From an uncultured Gammaproteobacteria bacterium (GTDB lineage: Bacteria; Patescibacteriota; Patescibacteriia; Veblenbacterales; UBA10138), in assembly GCA_964453605.1 (NCBI GenBank), contig CAYVOI010000002.1, positions 1 to 54,303 of the forward strand: 54,303 nt of DNA, read 5' to 3'. Made by a program: the position numbers and the translations under genes. Shown here one piece after another: positions 1,774 to 54,015 of the stretch. Each line of letters starts with the position of its first letter. Position 1 is the stretch's first letter. The notes beneath the pieces were generated by a model. It was given only the letters and a program-made list of their open reading frames with translations, was not told the DNA's origin and made no database searches.

Positions 1774-3111
1774 TTACTGATGCTTCAAAAGCTCGGCTGC
1801 ATCTGTATTAGCCGCCGCTGCCCATTTCAATTTTCCTTCGCTCTCCCACTCAGCGGCAGTCCGTTCGCACATCTGGGAGGCCTTATCGGTTTTACCAGCT
1901 AAACGATAACAAATGCGAGCAGCATACAAATGATTATTGCCTTCAAAAATAGCCGCCCATGAAGTAAGTTCTTCATTGGTCAATAGTTTTGCAATTTTAT
2001 CATTGTCTAACATGCTCCCCATAGCAGAGAGGTCATCCTTGTTATCTCTTATAAACTCGTCTAGCATCTCACGAGCCTTAGCTTGGTTACCCACCTGCGT
2101 AAAATATTCAATGCTCTTTTCGGCATAACCTTGAACGAAGGGGGACTTTCTGTCCAATGTTGCATCCTTCCTATAGCTATTAGCATACTCTTGGCCACTC
2201 TTTAGCGCCAACTCTTTAACTTCTTCATCTTGTAACCCCAATTCCTTGGCAAAATCTAATTTTACCGCTGCTGGGTACACCCAACCCTTGGGGTTAACAT
2301 ACCCATTCAGGTAATCGTGGTACGCTTTATCGTCATCTGCTATACGACATAATGCTAAAATTGACCGTATGTTACTGTCATTTCTATTAGTAGTGAAAAC
2401 TTGTTCCTTAACTTTAGCTCTTAAAATATGTACTATTTTTTCTAGAAAATCACCTTCACCGTAAGACGCTCTTATGCTATTTACCCTTTCCAAGAGAGGG
2501 TCAGCACCATCAACTAGCTTAAAATATTCAAGCCATTGCTTTTGGGCAAGATCTAGTGAACCCAATATCTCTTGTGCCTCTGCTTCAAGTATAAGATCTT
2601 CGCCCCATATGGAAAATTCTTCTCCTAGATTTTTGGCTTTAAAATATTCCGCACCAGCTTGCCCTTTCGCTCTATCAGTGGCCATGGTGTCCTTTAATAC
2701 TAACAGGTCCTGGAATTGATCCATTGCATACTTTCGTGCTTCTTCATGATCGCCGTATTTTGCGCACAGTTCTGCGGCAATGGAACAGTTAGAATATTTT
2801 TCATAAATTTCTTCATCCGAATAACTGGCAATTTGCGCGGCGGTCGCTCGCAATATTTTTTTGGCCCTATCCTCTTGGTGGTTTTTTATGAAATATAAAA
2901 TAGCGGCCTCGCTATCTCCCATATTAATTCTCATGCCTTGTTCAATAGATGCCTCAATATTTTCTGCGTATCTCTTGTTTAGTTCAGCTGCCTTTTTTTC
3001 AAGCTGAGCGATAGAGGGGTGTTTTTCGCGCGCTTTATCTTCGGCCACTGCCATTTCTAAAGCTTCATTGGAACTACTTATACGCCCTTCATTAAAGTGT
3101 TCGACTTCCAT
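1774..3111 (-). CDS. Hypothetical 445-aa soluble protein, predicted all-helical and repeat-like (TPR-like impression only)
   Basis: Long uninterrupted ORF with non-repetitive, protein-like composition rich in E/K/A/L. Visibly more AT-rich than its neighbours (not computed). I recognise no family motif. Confidence 0.7.
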   Translation of the reverse strand: MEVEHFNEGRISSSNEALEMAVAEDKAREKHPSIAQLEKKAAELNKRYAENIEASIEQGMRINMGDSEAAILYFIKNHQEDRAKKILRATAAQIASYSDEEIYEKYSNCSIAAELCAKYGDHEEARKYAMDQFQDLLVLKDTMATDRAKGQAGAEYFKAKNLGEEFSIWGEDLILEAEAQEILGSLDLAQKQWLEYFKLVDGADPLLERVNSIRASYGEGDFLEKIVHILRAKVKEQVFTTNRNDSNIRSILALCRIADDDKAYHDYLNGYVNPKGWVYPAAVKLDFAKELGLQDEEVKELALKSGQEYANSYRKDATLDRKSPFVQGYAEKSIEYFTQVGNQAKAREMLDEFIRDNKDDLSAMGSMLDNDKIAKLLTNEELTSWAAIFEGNNHLYAARICYRLAGKTDKASQMCERTAAEWESEGKLKWAAAANTDAAELLKHQ

Positions 3112-3154
3112 AACGATTCTAAAATTTAATTATAAGGATGTATTCTATAGCCGC

Positions 3155-3183
3155 ATCCTACCCCCCCCCGAGGCCTTTGTCAA
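3155..3183 (-). promoter_or_regulatory. Candidate promoter of the 445-aa gene with a G9 tract in the spacer
   Basis: The minus strand has TTGACA (3178-3183), the 17-nt spacer AAGGCCTCGGGGGGGGG, and TAGGAT (3155-3160). The C9 run on the plus strand is at 3161-3169. Confidence 0.5.
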
Positions 3184-3241
3184 ATCAAAAATCAACACCA
3201 CAAGAGTAGTGTCGCGACCTACCTGTAAACTAGTGGGTGCC

Positions 3242-3277
3242 TTACGGATTTATGTCCAGCTGGACATAAATCCGTAA
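3242..3277. repeat. 36-bp perfect palindrome TTACGGATTTATGTCCAGCTGGACATAAATCCGTAA
   Basis: The sequence equals its own reverse complement. It lies 13 nt downstream of the stop of the 3291-3866 gene. Confidence 0.97.
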
Positions 3278-3290
3278 TCTGTATTATTCA

Positions 3291-3866
3291 TTATTTACCA
3301 TGGGGGAGGTGCAAAAAATGTTCGGCGTGGAAAACGTTCACCCAGGGCTTGAGCTTAGCTTGGGCGACAAATTGCGCTACGAGTTTGTAAACATCTGCCC
3401 TGCTCACCCACACACTCTGCTGCAGCTTGGCAAACCCGCCTTGTCGCAACAACCACCGGAACTGACGGCGAGCAATATTTTGGCTTTCGGGTATATCAAA
3501 AACTACGACCGTTGAAAGCGTGTCAGGTCGCCGTGGAGCTCGTTTGAGCTGTGTCACCAGCGTGGCAGCGCGCCCTTTAGCGGTAAGGGTTACGAGAAGC
3601 CGTTTGCCGATTTTTTGTGCAGTAATATAGCGTGCCTGTCGCAGTTGCGTGAGTGCCCGTTTAGCTGCTGTTTCCTTACTTAGGCGCTGGTATTCTTTAA
3701 CCAGGGTGTGCCCGCCGCGTAAATAGGTACCGCGATGATACTTAAGGTCGTAGAGCATGGTAGAGAAGTCCACCGCTGTCTGCCCAGTAGTAGCGAGCAG
3801 ATTGAGTAGCACCTTCGTTAGTGGTGGTCGTTGATTTCGCGTCATAGTATAACTGGATTGTATCAT
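3291..3866 (-). CDS. Putative PaaX-like regulator: N-terminal winged-helix plus C-terminal Cas2-fold-like domain (191 aa)
   Basis: The C-terminal segment TVVVFDIPESQNIARRQFRWLLRQGGFAKLQQSVWVS resembles the beta-alpha-beta core of Cas2/PaaX C-terminal domains. The N-terminal part resembles a wHTH. Assignment is by motif recollection only. Confidence 0.6.
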   Translation of the reverse strand: MIQSSYTMTRNQRPPLTKVLLNLLATTGQTAVDFSTMLYDLKYHRGTYLRGGHTLVKEYQRLSKETAAKRALTQLRQARYITAQKIGKRLLVTLTAKGRAATLVTQLKRAPRRPDTLSTVVVFDIPESQNIARRQFRWLLRQGGFAKLQQSVWVSRADVYKLVAQFVAQAKLKPWVNVFHAEHFLHLPHGK

Positions 3867-3869
3867 GCA

Positions 3870-3905
3870 TTACGGAAATATGTCCAGCTGGACATATTTC
3901 CGTAA
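3870..3905. repeat. 36-bp perfect palindrome TTACGGAAATATGTCCAGCTGGACATATTTCCGTAA
   Basis: The sequence equals its own reverse complement. It ends 3 nt upstream of the ATG at 3866. It differs from the 3242-3277 copy at 2 positions per arm, changed symmetrically. Confidence 0.97.
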
Positions 3906-3919
3906 TTGATCTAACAAGC

Positions 3920-4615
3920 TTACTTCACGCTACTGTTCCGTGTTCGCCACAGGGCAATGCGTTTATGGTGTCCACCAAGCAAAACCTTGGGTACACGGTA
4001 CTTGCGTTTGCTGACTACAAACACCTCGGGCCTGGTGTAGTGGGGGTGCTCTAAATAGGGAGTAGGGTGTAGGGAGTAGTCAGTAGAAAAAGATTCATTT
4101 TCAACTGACTCTTGCTTACCTACAACTCCAGGAATCATACGCGAAACCGCATCAATAATCACAGCTGCTGGCAGCTCGCCACCGGTGAGCACATAGGGGC
4201 CCACTGAAATTTTTTCATCGATAAAGTTTTCTACACGCGCATCCACACCTTCGTACCGCCCGCAAATAAAAATAAGTCGGTCATACTTCGCCAGCCGTTT
4301 GGCCACACCCTGCGTAAATTGTTTTCCATTCGCCGCCAATAACATTGTTCTCGTTTTCCCTACACCCTTCCCCCTACCCCCTGTACCCTTAAGCGCCCTG
4401 AGGGCGCGCCAAATCGGCTCCGCCTTTATCACCATACCCGCTCCCCCGCCGTACACTCGGTCGTCCACCTTGCGGTGCTTGTCGCGGCTCCATTTCCGCA
4501 AATCATGTGTTTGGATTTTAATTAATTTCTTTTCTTGCGCACGCTTTAAAATGCTCGTGCCAAAGTACGAATCGAGGGAACTTGGAAAAATGGAAATAAT
4601 GTCAAAACGTTTCAT
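3920..4615 (-). CDS. trmD: tRNA (guanine37-N1)-methyltransferase TrmD
   Basis: MKRFDIISIFP...YGGGAGMV...LTGGELPAAV motifs are present. The start is taken at the internal Met (4615) because the conserved N-terminus begins there. Confidence 0.9.
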   Translation of the reverse strand: MKRFDIISIFPSSLDSYFGTSILKRAQEKKLIKIQTHDLRKWSRDKHRKVDDRVYGGGAGMVIKAEPIWRALRALKGTGGRGKGVGKTRTMLLAANGKQFTQGVAKRLAKYDRLIFICGRYEGVDARVENFIDEKISVGPYVLTGGELPAAVIIDAVSRMIPGVVGKQESVENESFSTDYSLHPTPYLEHPHYTRPEVFVVSKRKYRVPKVLLGGHHKRIALWRTRNSSVK

Positions 4616-4651
4616 AACCAGTGATACGTTACCATAGGACAACACTTTATT

Positions 4652-6071: not shown

Positions 6072-6085
6072 GGTGCTTAAAACAA

Positions 6086-6116
6086 AACCACCCCCGCGAA
6101 TTTGCGGGGGTGGTTT
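6086..6116. terminator. GC-rich hairpin terminator (AAACCACCCCCGC...GCGGGGGTGGTTT)
   Basis: 13-bp stem with A/T runs on both sides. It follows the regulator stop on the plus strand and the KH-tail fragment on the minus strand. Confidence 0.6.
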
Positions 6117-6126
6117 AAAATCAAGA

Positions 6127-6251
6127 CTATATCTTCAAATCGTCGACTATGGAGGTGTCGGCCATGGGGGCGCCCACGTCGCCGCCGTGCATAGCCTCGC
6201 GCTCTTCACGCGAGCGGCAGGAAAAATAGAGATAATATCAAAGCGTTTCAT
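6127..6251 (-). pseudogene. Chimeric gene fragment: the trmD 5' end (11 codons, 6220-6251) fused out of frame to a copy of the KH-protein 3' end (6127-6219)
   Basis: ATGAAACGCTTTGATATTATCTCTATTTTTCC matches the trmD start. The following ~93 nt are about 87% identical (hand count) to 9127-9219. Confidence 0.8.
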
Positions 6252-6269
6252 ACTATAACCATAAATCAA

Positions 6270-6292
6270 GGGGCCGCCTTTCGACAAGCCCC
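6270..6292 (-). repeat. Hairpin GGGGCTTGTCGAAAGGCGGCCCC, copy 1 of 2
   Basis: Near-identical to 8568-8590. Both sit between the stop of an upstream ORF and a trmD-head fragment. Confidence 0.85.
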
Positions 6293-6302
6293 TAAGAAAT
6301 TC

Positions 6303-8437: not shown

Positions 8438-8469
8438 GATGGAAGCCTGGCCAGCTTCCATCTTTTTTT
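8438..8469 (+). terminator. Intrinsic terminator of glnA
   Basis: Hairpin GATGGAAGC-7nt-GCTTCCATC followed by T7. Confidence 0.85.
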
Positions 8470-8548
8470 ACATACGCTTCAAAATGCTCGTGCCGAAGTA
8501 CGAGTCGAGCGGTGTGGAAAAAATAGCAATAATATCGAAGCGTTTCAT
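8468..8548 (-). pseudogene. trmD 5' fragment: an intact 26-codon ORF, MKRFDIIAIFSTPLDSYFGTSILKRM
   Basis: About 78% nt identity (hand count) to the first 78 nt of trmD (4538-4615). It ends at a stop inside the glnA terminator T-run. Confidence 0.75.
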
Positions 8549-8567
8549 AAACCTAACAATAATGAAA

Positions 8568-8590
8568 GGGGCCGCCGTTCGACAAGCCCC
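8568..8590 (-). repeat. Hairpin GGGGCTTGTCGAACGGCGGCCCC, copy 2 of 2
   Basis: Differs from 6270-6292 at one position and sits in the same position relative to a trmD-head fragment. Confidence 0.85.
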
Positions 8591-8600
8591 TCACCACAAA

Positions 8601-8978: not shown

Positions 8979-9086
8979 AACTTCTCCTTATTATTGAAAT
9001 TGGAAGGAATATAGTGTTAGATAATTGATTCTTTTTTTACCTCTACTGAAAAAGTTACTCCTAATATACCTCAGTGTCAACACAAA

Positions 9087-9113
9087 ATCACCCCGCCACC
9101 TCGGCGGGGTGAT
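9087..9113 (-). terminator. Terminator after the KH-protein gene
   Basis: On the minus strand, AATCACCCCGCC-GAGG-GGCGGGGTGATT is followed by TTGTGTT. Confidence 0.65.
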
Positions 9114-9126
9114 TATACAATCGAGC

Positions 9127-9486
9127 TTAAATCTTCAGGTCGTCGACTATAGCGGTGTCGGCCATGGAGGCGCCCATGTCGCCACCGTGCATAGCTTCGC
9201 GCTCTTCGCGGGAGCGGCGTGGGCCACGCGAACCCTCGGGTTCGTAAATTTTCAGGTTTACACGGGCGTTGTTCTTGGCGCCTACTACCCTGAGCAGGGT
9301 ACGAAGGCTGCGGGCAGTTTGGCCCTGGCGGCCGATTATCTGGCCCATGTCTTCAGGAGACACGTGGAGCGTAATGAGCACGCCCATTTCGTCTACCGTG
9401 CGTTCGGTCTTCACGGCTTCCGGGTGATCGACCAGCGCCTTTACGACGAAGTCGATGAACTGCTGGTCCTGTGGCATGTCGGACAT
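9127..9486 (-). CDS. KH-domain RNA-binding protein (YlqC/KhpA-like) with a charged C-terminal tail
   Basis: Contains the GQIIGRQGQTARSLRTLL (GXXG KH) motif. It lies directly downstream of rpsP, as in the conserved operon. Confidence 0.85.
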   Translation of the reverse strand: MSDMPQDQQFIDFVVKALVDHPEAVKTERTVDEMGVLITLHVSPEDMGQIIGRQGQTARSLRTLLRVVGAKNNARVNLKIYEPEGSRGPRRSREEREAMHGGDMGASMADTAIVDDLKI

Positions 9487-14647: not shown

Positions 14648-14985
14648 TTCTTTAACAATAGCTGCTTCGTCAGCCACCCCGACGGTTATCGGGGTGAACG
14701 CGAAGCGCTCAACAGTCGTAAGTTGTCCCTACCACCCTGGGAGGCCCCGCAGGAGCACACTCGTGCCCTACGGGGTAAAGGAGAAAGGTAACTCGAGCTG
14801 CAGGCTGAGGTTGGTTTACTAACTGACCACTACCTGGGTGCCGAGCTATTCGGTACACTAGCCTTAGGGCATAAGGTGTGCCACGGGCTTTCGCTCGTGC
14901 TCCGACGTAACATCGGAGTAAAAGCCAAGCTTTTGTTCTCCTTCAGGGTAGTAGGGATAACAATAACAAAATAAAAGGTGATAAC
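14648..14985 (+). ncRNA. Unclassified structured RNA or long 5' leader (~340 nt)
   Basis: No credible ORF. It contains a chain of at least 7 hairpins (for example 14664-14706 nested, 14745-14775 nested, 14838-14856, 14861-14877, 14882-14899, 14900-14918, 14920-14934). Confidence 0.35.
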
Positions 14986-19660: not shown

Positions 19661-19714
19661 AGTTGCTTGAGCAACTACTCCGACGTAACGTCGGAGTGGG
19701 AGCCCAGGCTCCCA
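19661..19714 (+). promoter_or_regulatory. Three contiguous hairpins abutting the rpsA start codon
   Basis: AGTTGCTTGAGCAACT (19661-19676), CTCCGACGTAACGTCGGAG (19678-19696) and TGGGAGCCCAGGCTCCCA (19697-19714). The ATG is at 19718 and there is no SD. Confidence 0.5.
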
Positions 19715-41161: not shown

Positions 41162-41236
41162 GGGCGAGTAGCTCAACGGTAGAGCAGCCGTCTTATATAC
41201 GGCCGGTTCATGGTTCGAATCCATGCTCGCCCACCA
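41162..41236 (+). tRNA. tRNA-Ile, anticodon UAU, CCA encoded
   Basis: Hand-folded cloverleaf: GGGCGAG/CTCGCCC acceptor, anticodon arm GCCGT-CTTATAT-ACGGC, and a TTCGAAT T-loop. Confidence 0.88.

Positions 41237-50399: not shown

Positions 50400-54015
<3,616 letters not shown>

What the first reader, a model, noticed from the sequence alone, without database searches (positions are those of the whole stretch)
3242..3905. A wHTH/Cas2-fold regulator gene bracketed by two near-identical 36-bp perfect palindromes with symmetric compensatory differences
- **The repeats.** TTACGGATTTATGTCCAGCTGGACATAAATCCGTAA (3242-3277) and TTACGGAAATATGTCCAGCTGGACATATTTCCGTAA (3870-3905) are each perfect palindromes centred on CAGCTG.
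- **How they differ.** They differ at two positions per arm, and the changes are mirrored in both arms, so perfect dyad symmetry is kept in each copy. That argues for selection on the hairpin or the dimer-binding site.
- **Position.** They sit 3 nt upstream of the ATG and 13 nt downstream of the stop of a single 191-aa gene. That gene's product looks like a PaaX-type wHTH fused to a Cas2-like ferredoxin fold. The upstream copy also lies 14 nt after the trmD stop.

Inference, possible roles:
- Autoregulatory operators.
- 18-bp RNA stem-loops that insulate or stabilise the transcript and mask its start.
- Boundaries of a single-gene cassette. Because each end is palindromic, the two ends are both direct and inverted repeats of each other.
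Basis: partly seen in the sequence, partly recalled or inferred. Interest (0 to 1): 0.65.

Follow-up and report, generated by a model that had tools for sequence, protein, structure and literature searches.

The report
Palindrome-bracketed Cas2-fold DNA-binding gene cassette
A small gene for a DNA-binding protein with a Cas2-like fold sits between two near-identical 36-bp perfect palindromes, and this layout turns out to mark a large, undescribed and patchily distributed gene family of Patescibacteria whose palindromes also occur alone between other genes.

Summary
Two perfect 36-bp palindromes (3242-3277, 3870-3905) bracket one minus-strand gene. They differ only by mirrored changes.

- **The protein.** It has a winged helix plus a Cas2/PaaX_M ferredoxin fold.
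- **The arrangement is a family trait.** About three quarters of close homologues, and about half of distant ones, have cognate 30-50-bp palindromes on one or both sides. All are in Patescibacteria-type MAGs, often several per genome.
- **The palindrome anatomy.** The core near the dyad is conserved (TGTCC-N4-GGACA). The outer arms covary without sequence conservation: 95.6% Watson-Crick pairs with no G·U excess. That indicates DNA-level symmetry, not an RNA-only stem.
- **The promoter.** The predicted promoter has its -35 (TGGACA) inside the upstream palindrome, and the real start is probably M8.
- **Insertion evidence.** A relative with 96.5% 16S identity has trmD without the cassette. Genomic contexts differ between loci.
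- **Solo copies.** In relatives the same palindromes also occur alone, mostly at gene 3' ends, in a REP-like way.

Best reading: these are cognate DNA sites of the encoded dimer, giving autoregulation within a horizontally acquired module. The live rival is that the protein is the enzyme that spreads the palindromes. No paper on this was found.

The parts
3870..3905 (.). Upstream palindrome, 36 bp and perfect, of the 'A-type' (outer arm-AAAT-ATGTCCAG|CTGGACAT-ATTT-outer arm). It lies 14 nt after the trmD stop. Its gene-proximal arm carries the predicted -35.
   Evidence: It is homologous in position and sequence to the palindrome that follows trmD in L111.
3242..3277 (.). Downstream palindrome, 36 bp and perfect, of the 'T-type' (outer arm-TTTAT-GTCCAG|CTGGAC-ATAAA-outer arm). 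It lies 13 nt after the stop of the gene.
   Evidence: It is identical over the 33 nt visible in L195, the closest homologue locus, although the proteins there are only 71% identical.
3291..3866 (-). Gene for a wHTH plus Cas2/PaaX_M-fold protein. The ORF is 191 codons. The likely true start is M8 at 3845, giving 184 aa. Residues including D124 (the Asp at the end of β1, as in Cas2), R133, R137, Q149, S151 and W153 are invariant in the 25-sequence alignment.
3857..3886 (-). Predicted sigma-70-type promoter: TGGACA (3886-3881), an 18-nt spacer, then TACAAT (3862-3857) with an upstream TG. It would give a near-leaderless mRNA starting a few nt before ATG 3845.
   Evidence: 10 of 12 matches. A similar layout is seen by eye in L029 and L113. 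Across loci the support is only moderate.
3193..3214 (-). Conventional terminator-like hairpin with a T run, directly after the downstream palindrome. It is the probable transcript end of the cassette gene.

Best explanation
The two palindromes and the gene between them form one conserved module of Patescibacteria.

- **The protein.** The gene encodes a small protein with an N-terminal winged helix and a C-terminal Cas2-like ferredoxin domain. In Cas2 and PaaX this kind of domain makes dimers.
- **The sites.** The palindromes are the cognate, DNA-level, dyad-symmetric sites of that dimer. The conserved core (TGTCC-N4-GGACA flanked by A/T tracts) is what the protein reads.
- **Regulation.** The upstream copy overlaps the -35 of the gene's own promoter, so binding represses the gene (autoregulation). 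The downstream copy is a second site that closes off the unit.
- **The outer arms.** The extra 6-10 bp per arm are not conserved in sequence but are kept strictly complementary. This means the DNA also has to pair with itself, as a hairpin or cruciform, or that one arm is repaired or copied from the other.
- **Origin.** The module was acquired by insertion between trmD and the rRNA promoter. In related genomes the same kind of palindrome also exists alone at the 3' ends of genes, as REP-like elements.

**Shown:** the sequence anatomy, the fold, the family-wide association, the covariation, the insertion polymorphism and the solo copies.

**Inferred:** dimerisation, binding, repression, and any hairpin state.
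For: - **Exact palindromes.** They are present as described and not expected by chance.
- **Fold.** PaaX_M scores 7.8e-15. The AF2 model has pLDDT 85, with a wHTH plus βαββαβ. The best structural matches are E. coli PaaX and then Cas2 proteins. The Cas2 motif FD(I/V)P...R..FR..L...GF..LQ.SVW is present.
- **Promoter.** The predicted -35 lies inside the upstream palindrome.
- **Flanking repeats.** 32 of 44 close homologue loci carry similar sequences on both flanks (palindromes listed). 19 of 35 distant homologues have a palindrome on at least one side. In an independent metagenome set, 30 of 62 complete loci have one, against a background of 0.05 per kb.
- **Core varies by clade.** The core changes with the protein clade (GTCCGGCCGGAC, CACGGCCGTG, TGCGGCCGCA, CGATCG...).
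- **Covariation.** 95.6% of pairs are Watson-Crick against 58% in shuffles. The covariation score is 0.897 against 0.197, and slid controls give 0.15-0.19. All 18 pairs change on both sides. Positions 13-18 carry almost no sequence information yet are 70-97% paired.
- **No wobble excess.** G·U pairs make up 9 of 936 cells.
- **Palindrome conservation.** The downstream palindrome is identical in the 71%-identical homologue locus L195.
- **Empty site.** L109 has 96.5% 16S identity and trmD with no cassette.
- **Contexts.** Neighbouring genes are unrelated between loci.
Against: - No binding or expression data exist. Only assembled contigs of two DNA runs hold this sequence.
- A simple autorepressor needs only one operator, not a second copy after the stop codon. 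It also does not need 36-50 bp of perfect symmetry.
- Solo copies in relatives sit mostly between convergent or tandem genes, where operators are not expected.
- Support for the '-35 inside the palindrome' layout across loci is weak: 12 of 27, against 14 of 37 for an irrelevant orientation.
- In some loci the two copies differ in their outer arms yet each stays symmetric (L061, L066, L071). Recognition by the protein alone does not explain this.
- The Asp at the end of β1 (D124), at the position of the Asp regarded as catalytic in Cas2, is invariant in the 25-sequence alignment. That keeps an enzymatic role open.
Confidence: 0.5

Rival explanations
1. The module is, or descends from, a mobile element, and the protein is its enzyme. 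In this reading the wHTH-Cas2-fold protein nicks, cuts or recombines at its palindromes. It thereby moves the cassette and seeds the solo palindromes. This is analogous to RAYT transposases and their REP/REPIN repeats, or to enzymes that work through DNA hairpins. Copying one arm from the other in a hairpin state would produce perfect symmetry and mirrored differences automatically.
For: - The gene is flanked on both sides, as transposase genes are. Identical 36-nt palindromes occur both around the gene (L065) and as at least 3 solo copies (L134, L155, L158) in one genome.
- There are several diverged paralogues per roughly 1-Mb genome, each with its own palindrome.
- Presence is patchy and an empty site exists. 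Contexts are unrelated.
- The symmetry is strictly Watson-Crick with no wobble excess, and differences are mirrored.
- The Asp at the Cas2 catalytic position is invariant.
- Recurrent 'hybrid' palindromes combine one arm of each type (L015, L041, L195, L196, L197).
Against: - No known transposase, recombinase or HUH motif is present.
- There are no target-site duplications next to the palindromes.
- Copy numbers are low.
- No excision or empty-site junction appears in the available contigs.
- No gene remnants lie near 27 solo copies.
- No near-identical cassette copies were found at different sites, and none in the phage or plasmid collections.
- The duplicated host-gene ends around some cassettes also occur around unrelated inserted genes in this window. 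They therefore reflect a general way of taking up DNA, not an activity of the element.
Confidence: 0.28
2. The palindromes are transcript-level elements: bidirectional terminators or 3'-end stabilising hairpins that insulate a stand-alone gene. The protein would have no specific relation to them.
For: - Solo copies lie mostly at gene 3' ends: about 7-8 between convergent genes, about 10 between tandem genes and 1 between divergent genes.
- Many solo copies and the window's upstream copy have the shape A-tract, GC stem, T-tract.
- The upstream copy sits 14 nt after the trmD stop.
Against: - The core sequence is conserved across distant lineages and changes with the protein clade. Terminators do not need that.
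- G·U pairs are not enriched.
- In 22 of 42 loci the upstream neighbour is divergent, so the upstream copy is not at a 3' end.
- Most downstream copies are 'T-type', with the T-run before the stem and the A-run after it, so they are not terminator-shaped. In the window a conventional terminator follows the downstream copy anyway.
- Enrichment next to this one gene family is about 30-fold.
Confidence: 0.12
3. The arrangement is a relic or relative of a CRISPR adaptation module: two 36-bp repeats around a Cas2-type gene.
For: - The C-terminal domain matches Cas2 at motif level, best to type II-A Cas2.
- The repeat length of 36 bp is in the CRISPR range.
Against: - There is no array, no cas1 signal and no spacer-sized intervals. 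The 'spacer' is the gene itself, about 590 bp.
- The repeats are perfect palindromes.
- Pfam places the domain in PaaX_M, not in Cas2 proper.
Confidence: 0.03

Closest known systems
PaaX-type transcriptional repressors (E. coli PaaX, PDB 8a39; Jannaschia 3l09)
   Same: The two N-terminal domains are the same and in the same order, a winged helix followed by a Cas2-like ferredoxin domain (PF20803). These are the best structural matches. PaaX binds palindromic operators and represses transcription (my own knowledge of the family).
   Different: The protein is about 180 aa and lacks the PaaX C-terminal domain. It scores 23 bits against a family cut-off of 264. It has no link to phenylacetate genes. 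Its sites are 34-50-bp perfect palindromes on both sides of its own gene, and the Asp at the end of β1 is kept as in Cas2.
REP/REPIN repeats and their RAYT (TnpA-REP) genes
   Same: In both, a gene is bracketed by short palindromic repeats that are specific to that gene copy. The same repeats also occur alone in intergenic regions, preferentially at gene 3' ends (REP/RAYT features from PMC3116915 and PMC3337134).
   Different: The protein is not an HUH/Y1 transposase. There is no GTAG/CGTC tag. The palindromes are perfect and longer. There are a handful of copies rather than hundreds. Several diverged paralogues occur per genome, whereas RAYTs are single-copy. The 54-kb window itself contains no solo copy.
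Cas2 of CRISPR adaptation modules
   Same: The fold is the same βαββαβ, and the motifs match (FD.P...R.FR..L...GF...Q.SV[WY]).
   Different: The domain is fused to a wHTH. No cas1 or CRISPR array is present. Only 40 of 96 model positions match.
Replicated hairpin-telomere junctions and other enzyme target sites that are long perfect palindromes (protelomerase sites of phage N15 or Borrelia)
   Same: Both are long, perfect, Watson-Crick-only palindromes with a conserved part near the axis. In those systems the symmetry arises because one arm is copied from the other (my own knowledge).
   Different: No tyrosine-recombinase-like enzyme is present, there is no linear replicon, and there is no evidence of hairpin ends. 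This is an analogy only.

Membership tests
PaaX family (TIGR02277 / PF07848+PF20803+PF08223) | N-terminal winged helix followed by the central Cas2-like domain | tested here: met
   PF20803 scores 7.8e-15. The AF2 model shows a wHTH plus βαββαβ. The top Foldseek hit is PaaX 8a39 at E 2.4e-5.
PaaX family (TIGR02277 / PF07848+PF20803+PF08223) | C-terminal PaaX domain and a full-length match to the equivalog model | tested here: not met
   The protein is 184-191 aa and ends with the Cas2-like domain. TIGR02277 scores 23.3 bits against a cut-off of 264.55. There is no PaaX_C hit.
PaaX family (TIGR02277 / PF07848+PF20803+PF08223) | Control of phenylacetate catabolic genes, with phenylacetyl-CoA as effector | tested here: not met
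   The neighbours are trmD, an orphan 445-aa gene and the 16S rRNA. Neighbours in 47 loci are unrelated to paa genes. Ligand binding cannot be tested with these tools.
Cas2 (CRISPR adaptation) | Ferredoxin-like fold with a conserved Asp at the end of β1 and the Cas2 motifs | tested here: met
   D124 is invariant in the 25-sequence alignment. The motif aligns to type II-A Cas2. Cas2 chains are among the structural matches.
Cas2 (CRISPR adaptation) | Stand-alone protein of about 90-110 aa, next to cas1 and a CRISPR array | tested here: not met
   The domain is fused to a wHTH. No regularly spaced repeat array is found in the window. PADLOC gives only partial Cas2 hits for this protein.
Cas2 (CRISPR adaptation) | Match to TIGR01573 above its cut-off | tested here: inconclusive
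   The score is 25.2 bits against a cut-off of 24.5, but it covers only model positions 4-43 of 96.
REP/REPIN-RAYT systems | Associated gene flanked by its own palindromic repeats | tested here: met
REP/REPIN-RAYT systems | The same repeats dispersed at many extragenic sites of the genome | tested here: inconclusive
   Relatives have solo copies, for example at least 3 in one genome that are identical to the gene-flanking pair, and at least 20 solo sites overall. Numbers are low, and the 54-kb window holds no copy besides the two flanking ones.
REP/REPIN-RAYT systems | Associated protein is an HUH/Y1 (IS200/IS605-type) transposase | tested here: not met
   No such Pfam, NCBIfam or PHROG hit is found. 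No His or Tyr is among the invariant residues; Y48 is nearly invariant.
REP/REPIN-RAYT systems | Conserved GTAG/CGTC tetranucleotide at the repeat end | tested here: not met
   The outer positions of 64 aligned palindromes carry no conserved sequence.
Insertion sequences / MITEs | Terminal inverted repeats with short target-site duplications just outside them, and a transposase | tested here: not met
   No direct repeats beyond chance were found in 23 of 24 loci. There is no transposase domain.
Autoregulated wHTH repressor with palindromic operator | Dyad-symmetric site overlapping the regulator's own promoter | tested here: met
   This rests on prediction only. TGGACA-18-TACAAT has its -35 inside the palindrome. 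Across loci the layout holds in 12 of 27.
Autoregulated wHTH repressor with palindromic operator | Specific binding of the protein to the site and repression | not testable with these tools
   This needs EMSA or footprinting and a reporter assay.
Intrinsic (rho-independent) terminators | GC-rich stem-loop followed by a U run on the transcribed strand | tested here: inconclusive
   On the gene's strand the scan finds the conventional hairpin at 3214-3193, not the palindromes. It flags 3242-3277 only for the opposite strand. The upstream copy has a weak ATTT tail.

The most novel reading that the evidence does not exclude
The wHTH-Cas2-fold proteins are a new class of enzymes that act on DNA palindromes. 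Each would cut or recombine at its cognate palindrome through a hairpin state. That would regenerate perfect symmetry, move the single-gene cassette, and seed REP-like solo palindromes in the tiny genomes of Patescibacteria. This would be a palindrome-repeat-plus-associated-protein system built on a Cas2 fold rather than on an HUH transposase.
Probability: 0.2. Interest if true: 0.9.

Novelty: new variant of a known kind. Interest (0 to 1): 0.66.

Why it matters
- **Family size.** The family has 1,342 clusters at 50% identity with E up to 1e-10.
- **Misleading names.** The names seen for homologues in the protein search were 'CRISPR-associated endonuclease Cas2', 'DNA-binding transcriptional regulator PaaX' or 'hypothetical protein'. 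The first two labels do not fit.
- **A testable pairing.** The family comes with a built-in candidate DNA partner, so a direct experiment is possible: protein plus 36-mer.
- **If it is a regulator.** It would be one of the few transcription factors of Patescibacteria for which a candidate target site can be read directly from the sequence.
- **If it is an enzyme.** It would be a second, unrelated solution to the REP/RAYT lifestyle. It would also be a Cas2-fold protein that handles palindromic repeats outside CRISPR, which bears on ideas about where Cas2 came from.
- **Assembly.** The long perfect palindromes break de Bruijn-graph assemblies at these loci.

Tried and rejected
- **Further copies in the window.** No third palindrome and no paralogue of the gene were found.
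- **Known RNA families.** Rfam gave nothing at the gathering threshold and only noise at E up to 1.
- **Defence and phage libraries.** PADLOC and PHROGs gave only partial Cas2 hits and Csa3-like wHTH hits.
- **Phage and plasmid collections.** No homologue was found.
- **Excision or empty-site forms in reads.** Only Logan contigs of two rock-metagenome runs hold the sequence. Unitigs break at the palindromes and no joint lacks the cassette.
- **Relatives of the 445-aa neighbour.** trmD homologues were used instead.
- **Short target-site duplications.** None were found outside the palindromes.
- **Gene remnants near solo palindromes.** None were found.
- **The -10 spacing test across loci.** It did not discriminate.
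- **Nucleotide-level mapping of the insertion against the empty site.** A global alignment misplaced the short sequence. A local alignment found only the shared TTGACAAAGG, which is not significant on its own.
- **Duplicated host-gene ends as an element-specific scar.** This was rejected because the same kind of duplication surrounds unrelated inserted genes upstream of trmD in this window.
- **Literature.** Five searches found nothing on this family or on palindromic repeats of Patescibacteria.
Full report
**1. The observation**

Each is a perfect palindrome around CAGCTG. They differ only at two positions per arm, and the changes are mirrored, so both stay perfect. None of 100 shuffles of the window gave a match. 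Even with three mismatches, or with the 16-nt core alone, the 54-kb window holds no third copy. As single strands each folds into a 16-bp stem with a 4-nt loop at -15.3 kcal/mol, z about -10 to -11.

The only ORF between them is 3291-3866 on the minus strand, 191 codons.

**2. The gene**

- **Family scans.** Pfam finds the PaaX central Cas2-like domain (PF20803, 7.8e-15), a weak winged-helix match and a weak Cas2 match. NCBIfam gives a partial Cas2 hit just above cut-off, and a PaaX score of 23 bits against a cut-off of 264.
- **Structure.** An AlphaFold model built on 25 homologues (pLDDT 85) shows a winged helix followed by a βαββαβ domain. Its best solved matches are E. coli PaaX and a PaaX-like protein, then a series of Cas2 chains.
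- **Motifs.** The profile aligns to type II-A Cas2 at motif level, FD(I/V)P...R..FR..L...GF..LQ.SVW. The Asp at the end of β1 is invariant in the 25-sequence alignment.
- **Conclusion on the fold.** It lacks the C-terminal domain and any link to phenylacetate genes.
- **Start codon.** Homologues begin 6-9 residues before the conserved P-x-T-K. That points to M8 (ATG 3845) as the start. The gene caller's 155-aa version is too short.

**3. The promoter**

The only good sigma-70-like site upstream is TGGACA-18 nt-TACAAT with an upstream TG, at 3886-3857 on the minus strand. Its -35 is the gene-proximal half of the palindrome core. The -10 ends 11 nt before ATG 3845, so the mRNA would be nearly leaderless and would not contain the upstream palindrome. 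A conventional terminator hairpin with a T run (3214-3193) follows the downstream palindrome.

The same '-35 in the palindrome' layout is visible in L029 and L113. Across 27 loci it holds in 12. That is better than for the outward direction (3 of 27) but no better than an irrelevant control (14 of 37). I treat it as plausible for this subfamily, not as a rule.

**4. The arrangement is a family trait**

- **Extent of the family.** The protein has relatives only in Patescibacteria-type metagenome bins, a few of them labelled otherwise. There are 117 loci among GTDB species representatives and 120 in JGI metagenomes, and up to six diverged copies in one genome. An exhaustive profile search finds 1,342 clusters at 50% identity with E up to 1e-10. 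None are in the phage or plasmid collections.
- **Close homologues.** In 32 of 44 loci the two flanks of the gene share a sequence that matches in both orientations, that is, a palindrome. The palindromes are 30-50 bp. Their centres lie a median of about 60 nt before the start and about 40 nt after the stop.
- **Distant homologues.** Among those at 25-35% identity, 19 of 35 have such a palindrome on at least one side and 6 on both.
- **Independent set.** In the metagenome loci, 30 of 62 complete loci have one (14 on both sides). The background is 0.05 per kb of surrounding sequence, so enrichment is roughly 30-fold.
- **Core and clade.** The core differs by clade: TGTCC-AGCT-GGACA in the window's closest relatives, TGTCC-GGCC-GGACA in most, and CACGGCCGTG, TGCGGCCGCA or CGATCG-centred cores further out.

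**5. What is conserved in the palindromes**

I aligned 64 palindromes on their dyad.

| Positions from the centre | Sequence conservation | Pairing |
|---|---|---|
| 1-7 | conserved | paired |
| 8-12 | A or T only | paired |
| 13-18 | almost none | 70-97% complementary, all four pair types |
| beyond about 19-20 | none | falls to chance |

The formal count on 52 distinct palindromes:

| Measure | Observed | Shuffled | Partner slid by 1-3 columns |
|---|---|---|---|
| Cells that are Watson-Crick pairs | 95.6% | 58% | 34-47% |
| Covariation score | 0.897 | 0.197 | 0.15-0.19 |

- All 18 pairs change on both sides.
- Only 9 of 936 cells are G·U. That is no more than their share of random mismatches. 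An RNA helix under selection normally shows wobble intermediates, so the constraint is on both DNA strands at once.

Of 97 positions that differ between the upstream and downstream copy in 25 loci, 52 are changed in both arms of both copies with pairing kept.

In the window's subfamily the difference is systematic. The upstream copy has A-run, core, T-run. The downstream copy has T-run, core, A-run.

In L195, the closest homologue (71% protein identity), the visible 33 nt of the downstream palindrome are identical to the window's. The whole palindrome can therefore be far better conserved than the gene.

**6. Insertion and context**

- **Empty site.** L109 carries a 16S gene 96.5% identical to the window's. 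There trmD is followed after 28 nt by a TTGACAAAGG promoter, a leader homologous to window 1541-1385, and the 16S gene. It has no cassette, no palindrome and no 445-aa gene. In the window the same promoter motif lies 57 nt beyond the downstream palindrome.
- **Limits of the mapping.** The flanks are too diverged to map the junctions to the base.
- **Occupied site in another relative.** L111 (TrmD 75% identical) has a related palindrome, TTTCGGAAATATGTCCGGCCGGACATAT..., starting about 10 nt after the trmD stop. The contig breaks there.
- **Other loci.** The neighbours are mostly unrelated: 88 neighbouring ORFs fall into 69 clusters.
- **Conclusion.** The module is gained and lost, and it sits in many contexts.
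- **Duplications.** I found no short target-site duplications outside the palindromes. Some loci show direct duplications of the end of a host gene 100-250 nt outside the palindromes (L030, L033, L054, L060, L069, L197). The same kind of scar surrounds unrelated inserted genes upstream of trmD in this very window. I read it as the general way these genomes take up DNA, not as an activity of the cassette.

**7. Solo palindromes**

I scanned all GTDB representative genomes for WWWWTGTCCGGCCGGACAWWWW. It returned 83 stretches, most of them in Patescibacteria.

- About 26 sites flank 19 homologue genes.
- At least 20 long-armed copies (14-33 bp per arm), each with 800 nt or more of sequence on both sides, have no homologue nearby and no gene remnant.
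- They are intergenic: about 7-8 between convergent genes, about 10 between tandem genes and one between divergent genes.
- In one genome the identical 36-mer flanks the gene (L065) and occurs alone at three further sites (L134, L155, L158).

The picture resembles REP elements and their RAYT genes (PMC3116915, PMC3337134). The associated protein, however, is of a completely different kind.

**8. How it most likely works**

I commit to the following, at about 0.5. The protein is a dimer, with the Cas2-like domain as the dimerisation module as in Cas2 and PaaX. The dimer reads the conserved core of its palindromes as double-stranded DNA. Binding to the upstream copy, which overlaps the -35, represses its own gene. 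The downstream copy is a second site that delimits the unit.

The strict complementarity of the unconserved outer arms needs something more. Either the DNA must pair with itself, as a hairpin on single-stranded DNA or as a cruciform, or one arm is copied or repaired from the other.

That extra requirement keeps the main rival alive, at about 0.28. Other points in its favour are the second copy, the solo copies at 3' ends, the multiple paralogues each with a private palindrome, and the invariant Asp at the position regarded as catalytic in Cas2. In the rival reading the protein is the enzyme that cuts or recombines these palindromes and spreads them. Against it:

- no known catalytic motif of a transposase or recombinase is present;
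- there are no target duplications;
- copy numbers are low;
- there is no sign of excision in the only available data.

A purely RNA-level role as terminator or stabiliser gets about 0.12. It is disfavoured by the conserved, clade-specific core, by the lack of wobble pairs, by divergent upstream neighbours in half of the loci, and by the non-terminator shape of most downstream copies. A CRISPR relic is unlikely: there is no array, no cas1, and the 'spacer' is the gene.

**9. Novelty**

Five literature searches found nothing on this family, on PF20803 proteins of Patescibacteria, or on palindromic repeats in these genomes. The parts are known kinds: a PaaX/Cas2-fold wHTH protein, palindromic operators and REP-like repeats. 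The combination is not known, so I rate it a new variant of a known kind. There is a modest chance that it is an enzymatically new repeat-handling system.

Noticed in passing
window 4528-4617, 6220-6293, 8461-8591; 6079-6218 and 9079-9218: There are nested direct duplications upstream of trmD. The trmD 5' end (MKRFDIISIFP...) occurs as two extra remnants, one of 26 codons and one of 11 codons. The preceding terminator-like hairpin occurs twice, and the 3' end of an upstream gene occurs twice, at 80-84% identity. Between the copies lie inserted genes: glnA, a TrmB-like regulator and small ORFs. In relatives trmD directly follows the KH-protein and rpsP genes. Gene insertions here are therefore flanked by duplicated host gene ends.
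   Followed up: partly
window 1774-3183 versus L109 4185-4390: The 445-aa gene has no relative among the species-representative genomes. It sits between a promoter (TTGACA-17-TAGGAT, 3183-3155) and the 16S leader (1541-1385). In the relative L109 these form one continuous rRNA promoter-leader. The gene therefore looks inserted into the 16S leader region.
   Followed up: partly
L033/L024, L054, L060, L069, L030, L197: Homologue cassettes are flanked, 100-250 nt outside the palindromes, by direct duplicates of the end of a host gene. The genes are the DHH/NrnA 3' end at the GGGGH motif (in three separate loci including L113's neighbourhood), a glycosyltransferase 3' end, the prfB 5' end, a nucleotidyltransferase 5' end (28 nt identical) and a gyrA-like end.
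   Followed up: partly
L015 3040-3075; L041 upstream copy; L195 585-620; L196 and L197 flanks: 'Hybrid' palindromes recur, with a T-run on both sides of the core (one arm of each type). They are imperfect in the A/T tract. They have the form expected if an upstream-type copy and a downstream-type copy had recombined.
   Followed up: no
L120, L135, L153, L184, L189 (Verrucomicrobiota bin) and L119, L124, L145 (Limnocylindria bin): The same core with long arms (up to 33 bp) occurs several times in two bins labelled outside Patescibacteria. One copy (L124) lies next to a homologue of the gene (E 2e-22). This is either a wider host range or contamination of the bins.
   Followed up: no
window 50403-54012 and 1-1083: The 23S rRNA gene spans 3,610 nt against a 2,925-position model. 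That is about 690 extra nt, with no internal ORF of 110 aa or more. The 16S and the 23S-5S genes are unlinked, about 49 kb apart.
   Followed up: partly
window 14900-14920, 19678-19698, 51003-51023; L195 40-62: A 20-21-nt palindrome, CTCCGACGT(A/T)ACGTCGGAG, occurs three times in the window, once inside the 23S gene. It also occurs upstream of the closest homologue cassette in L195. There is no Rfam match.
   Followed up: partly
window 41162-41236: A tRNA-Ile with anticodon TAT lies next to a tRNA-Val.
   Followed up: no
window 3242-3277 and 3870-3905; ends of L111, L112, L113, L195: Assemblies break at these palindromes. Logan unitigs end inside them, and several public contigs start or stop within a palindrome. 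Family members will therefore often sit at contig ends or be missed.
   Followed up: yes
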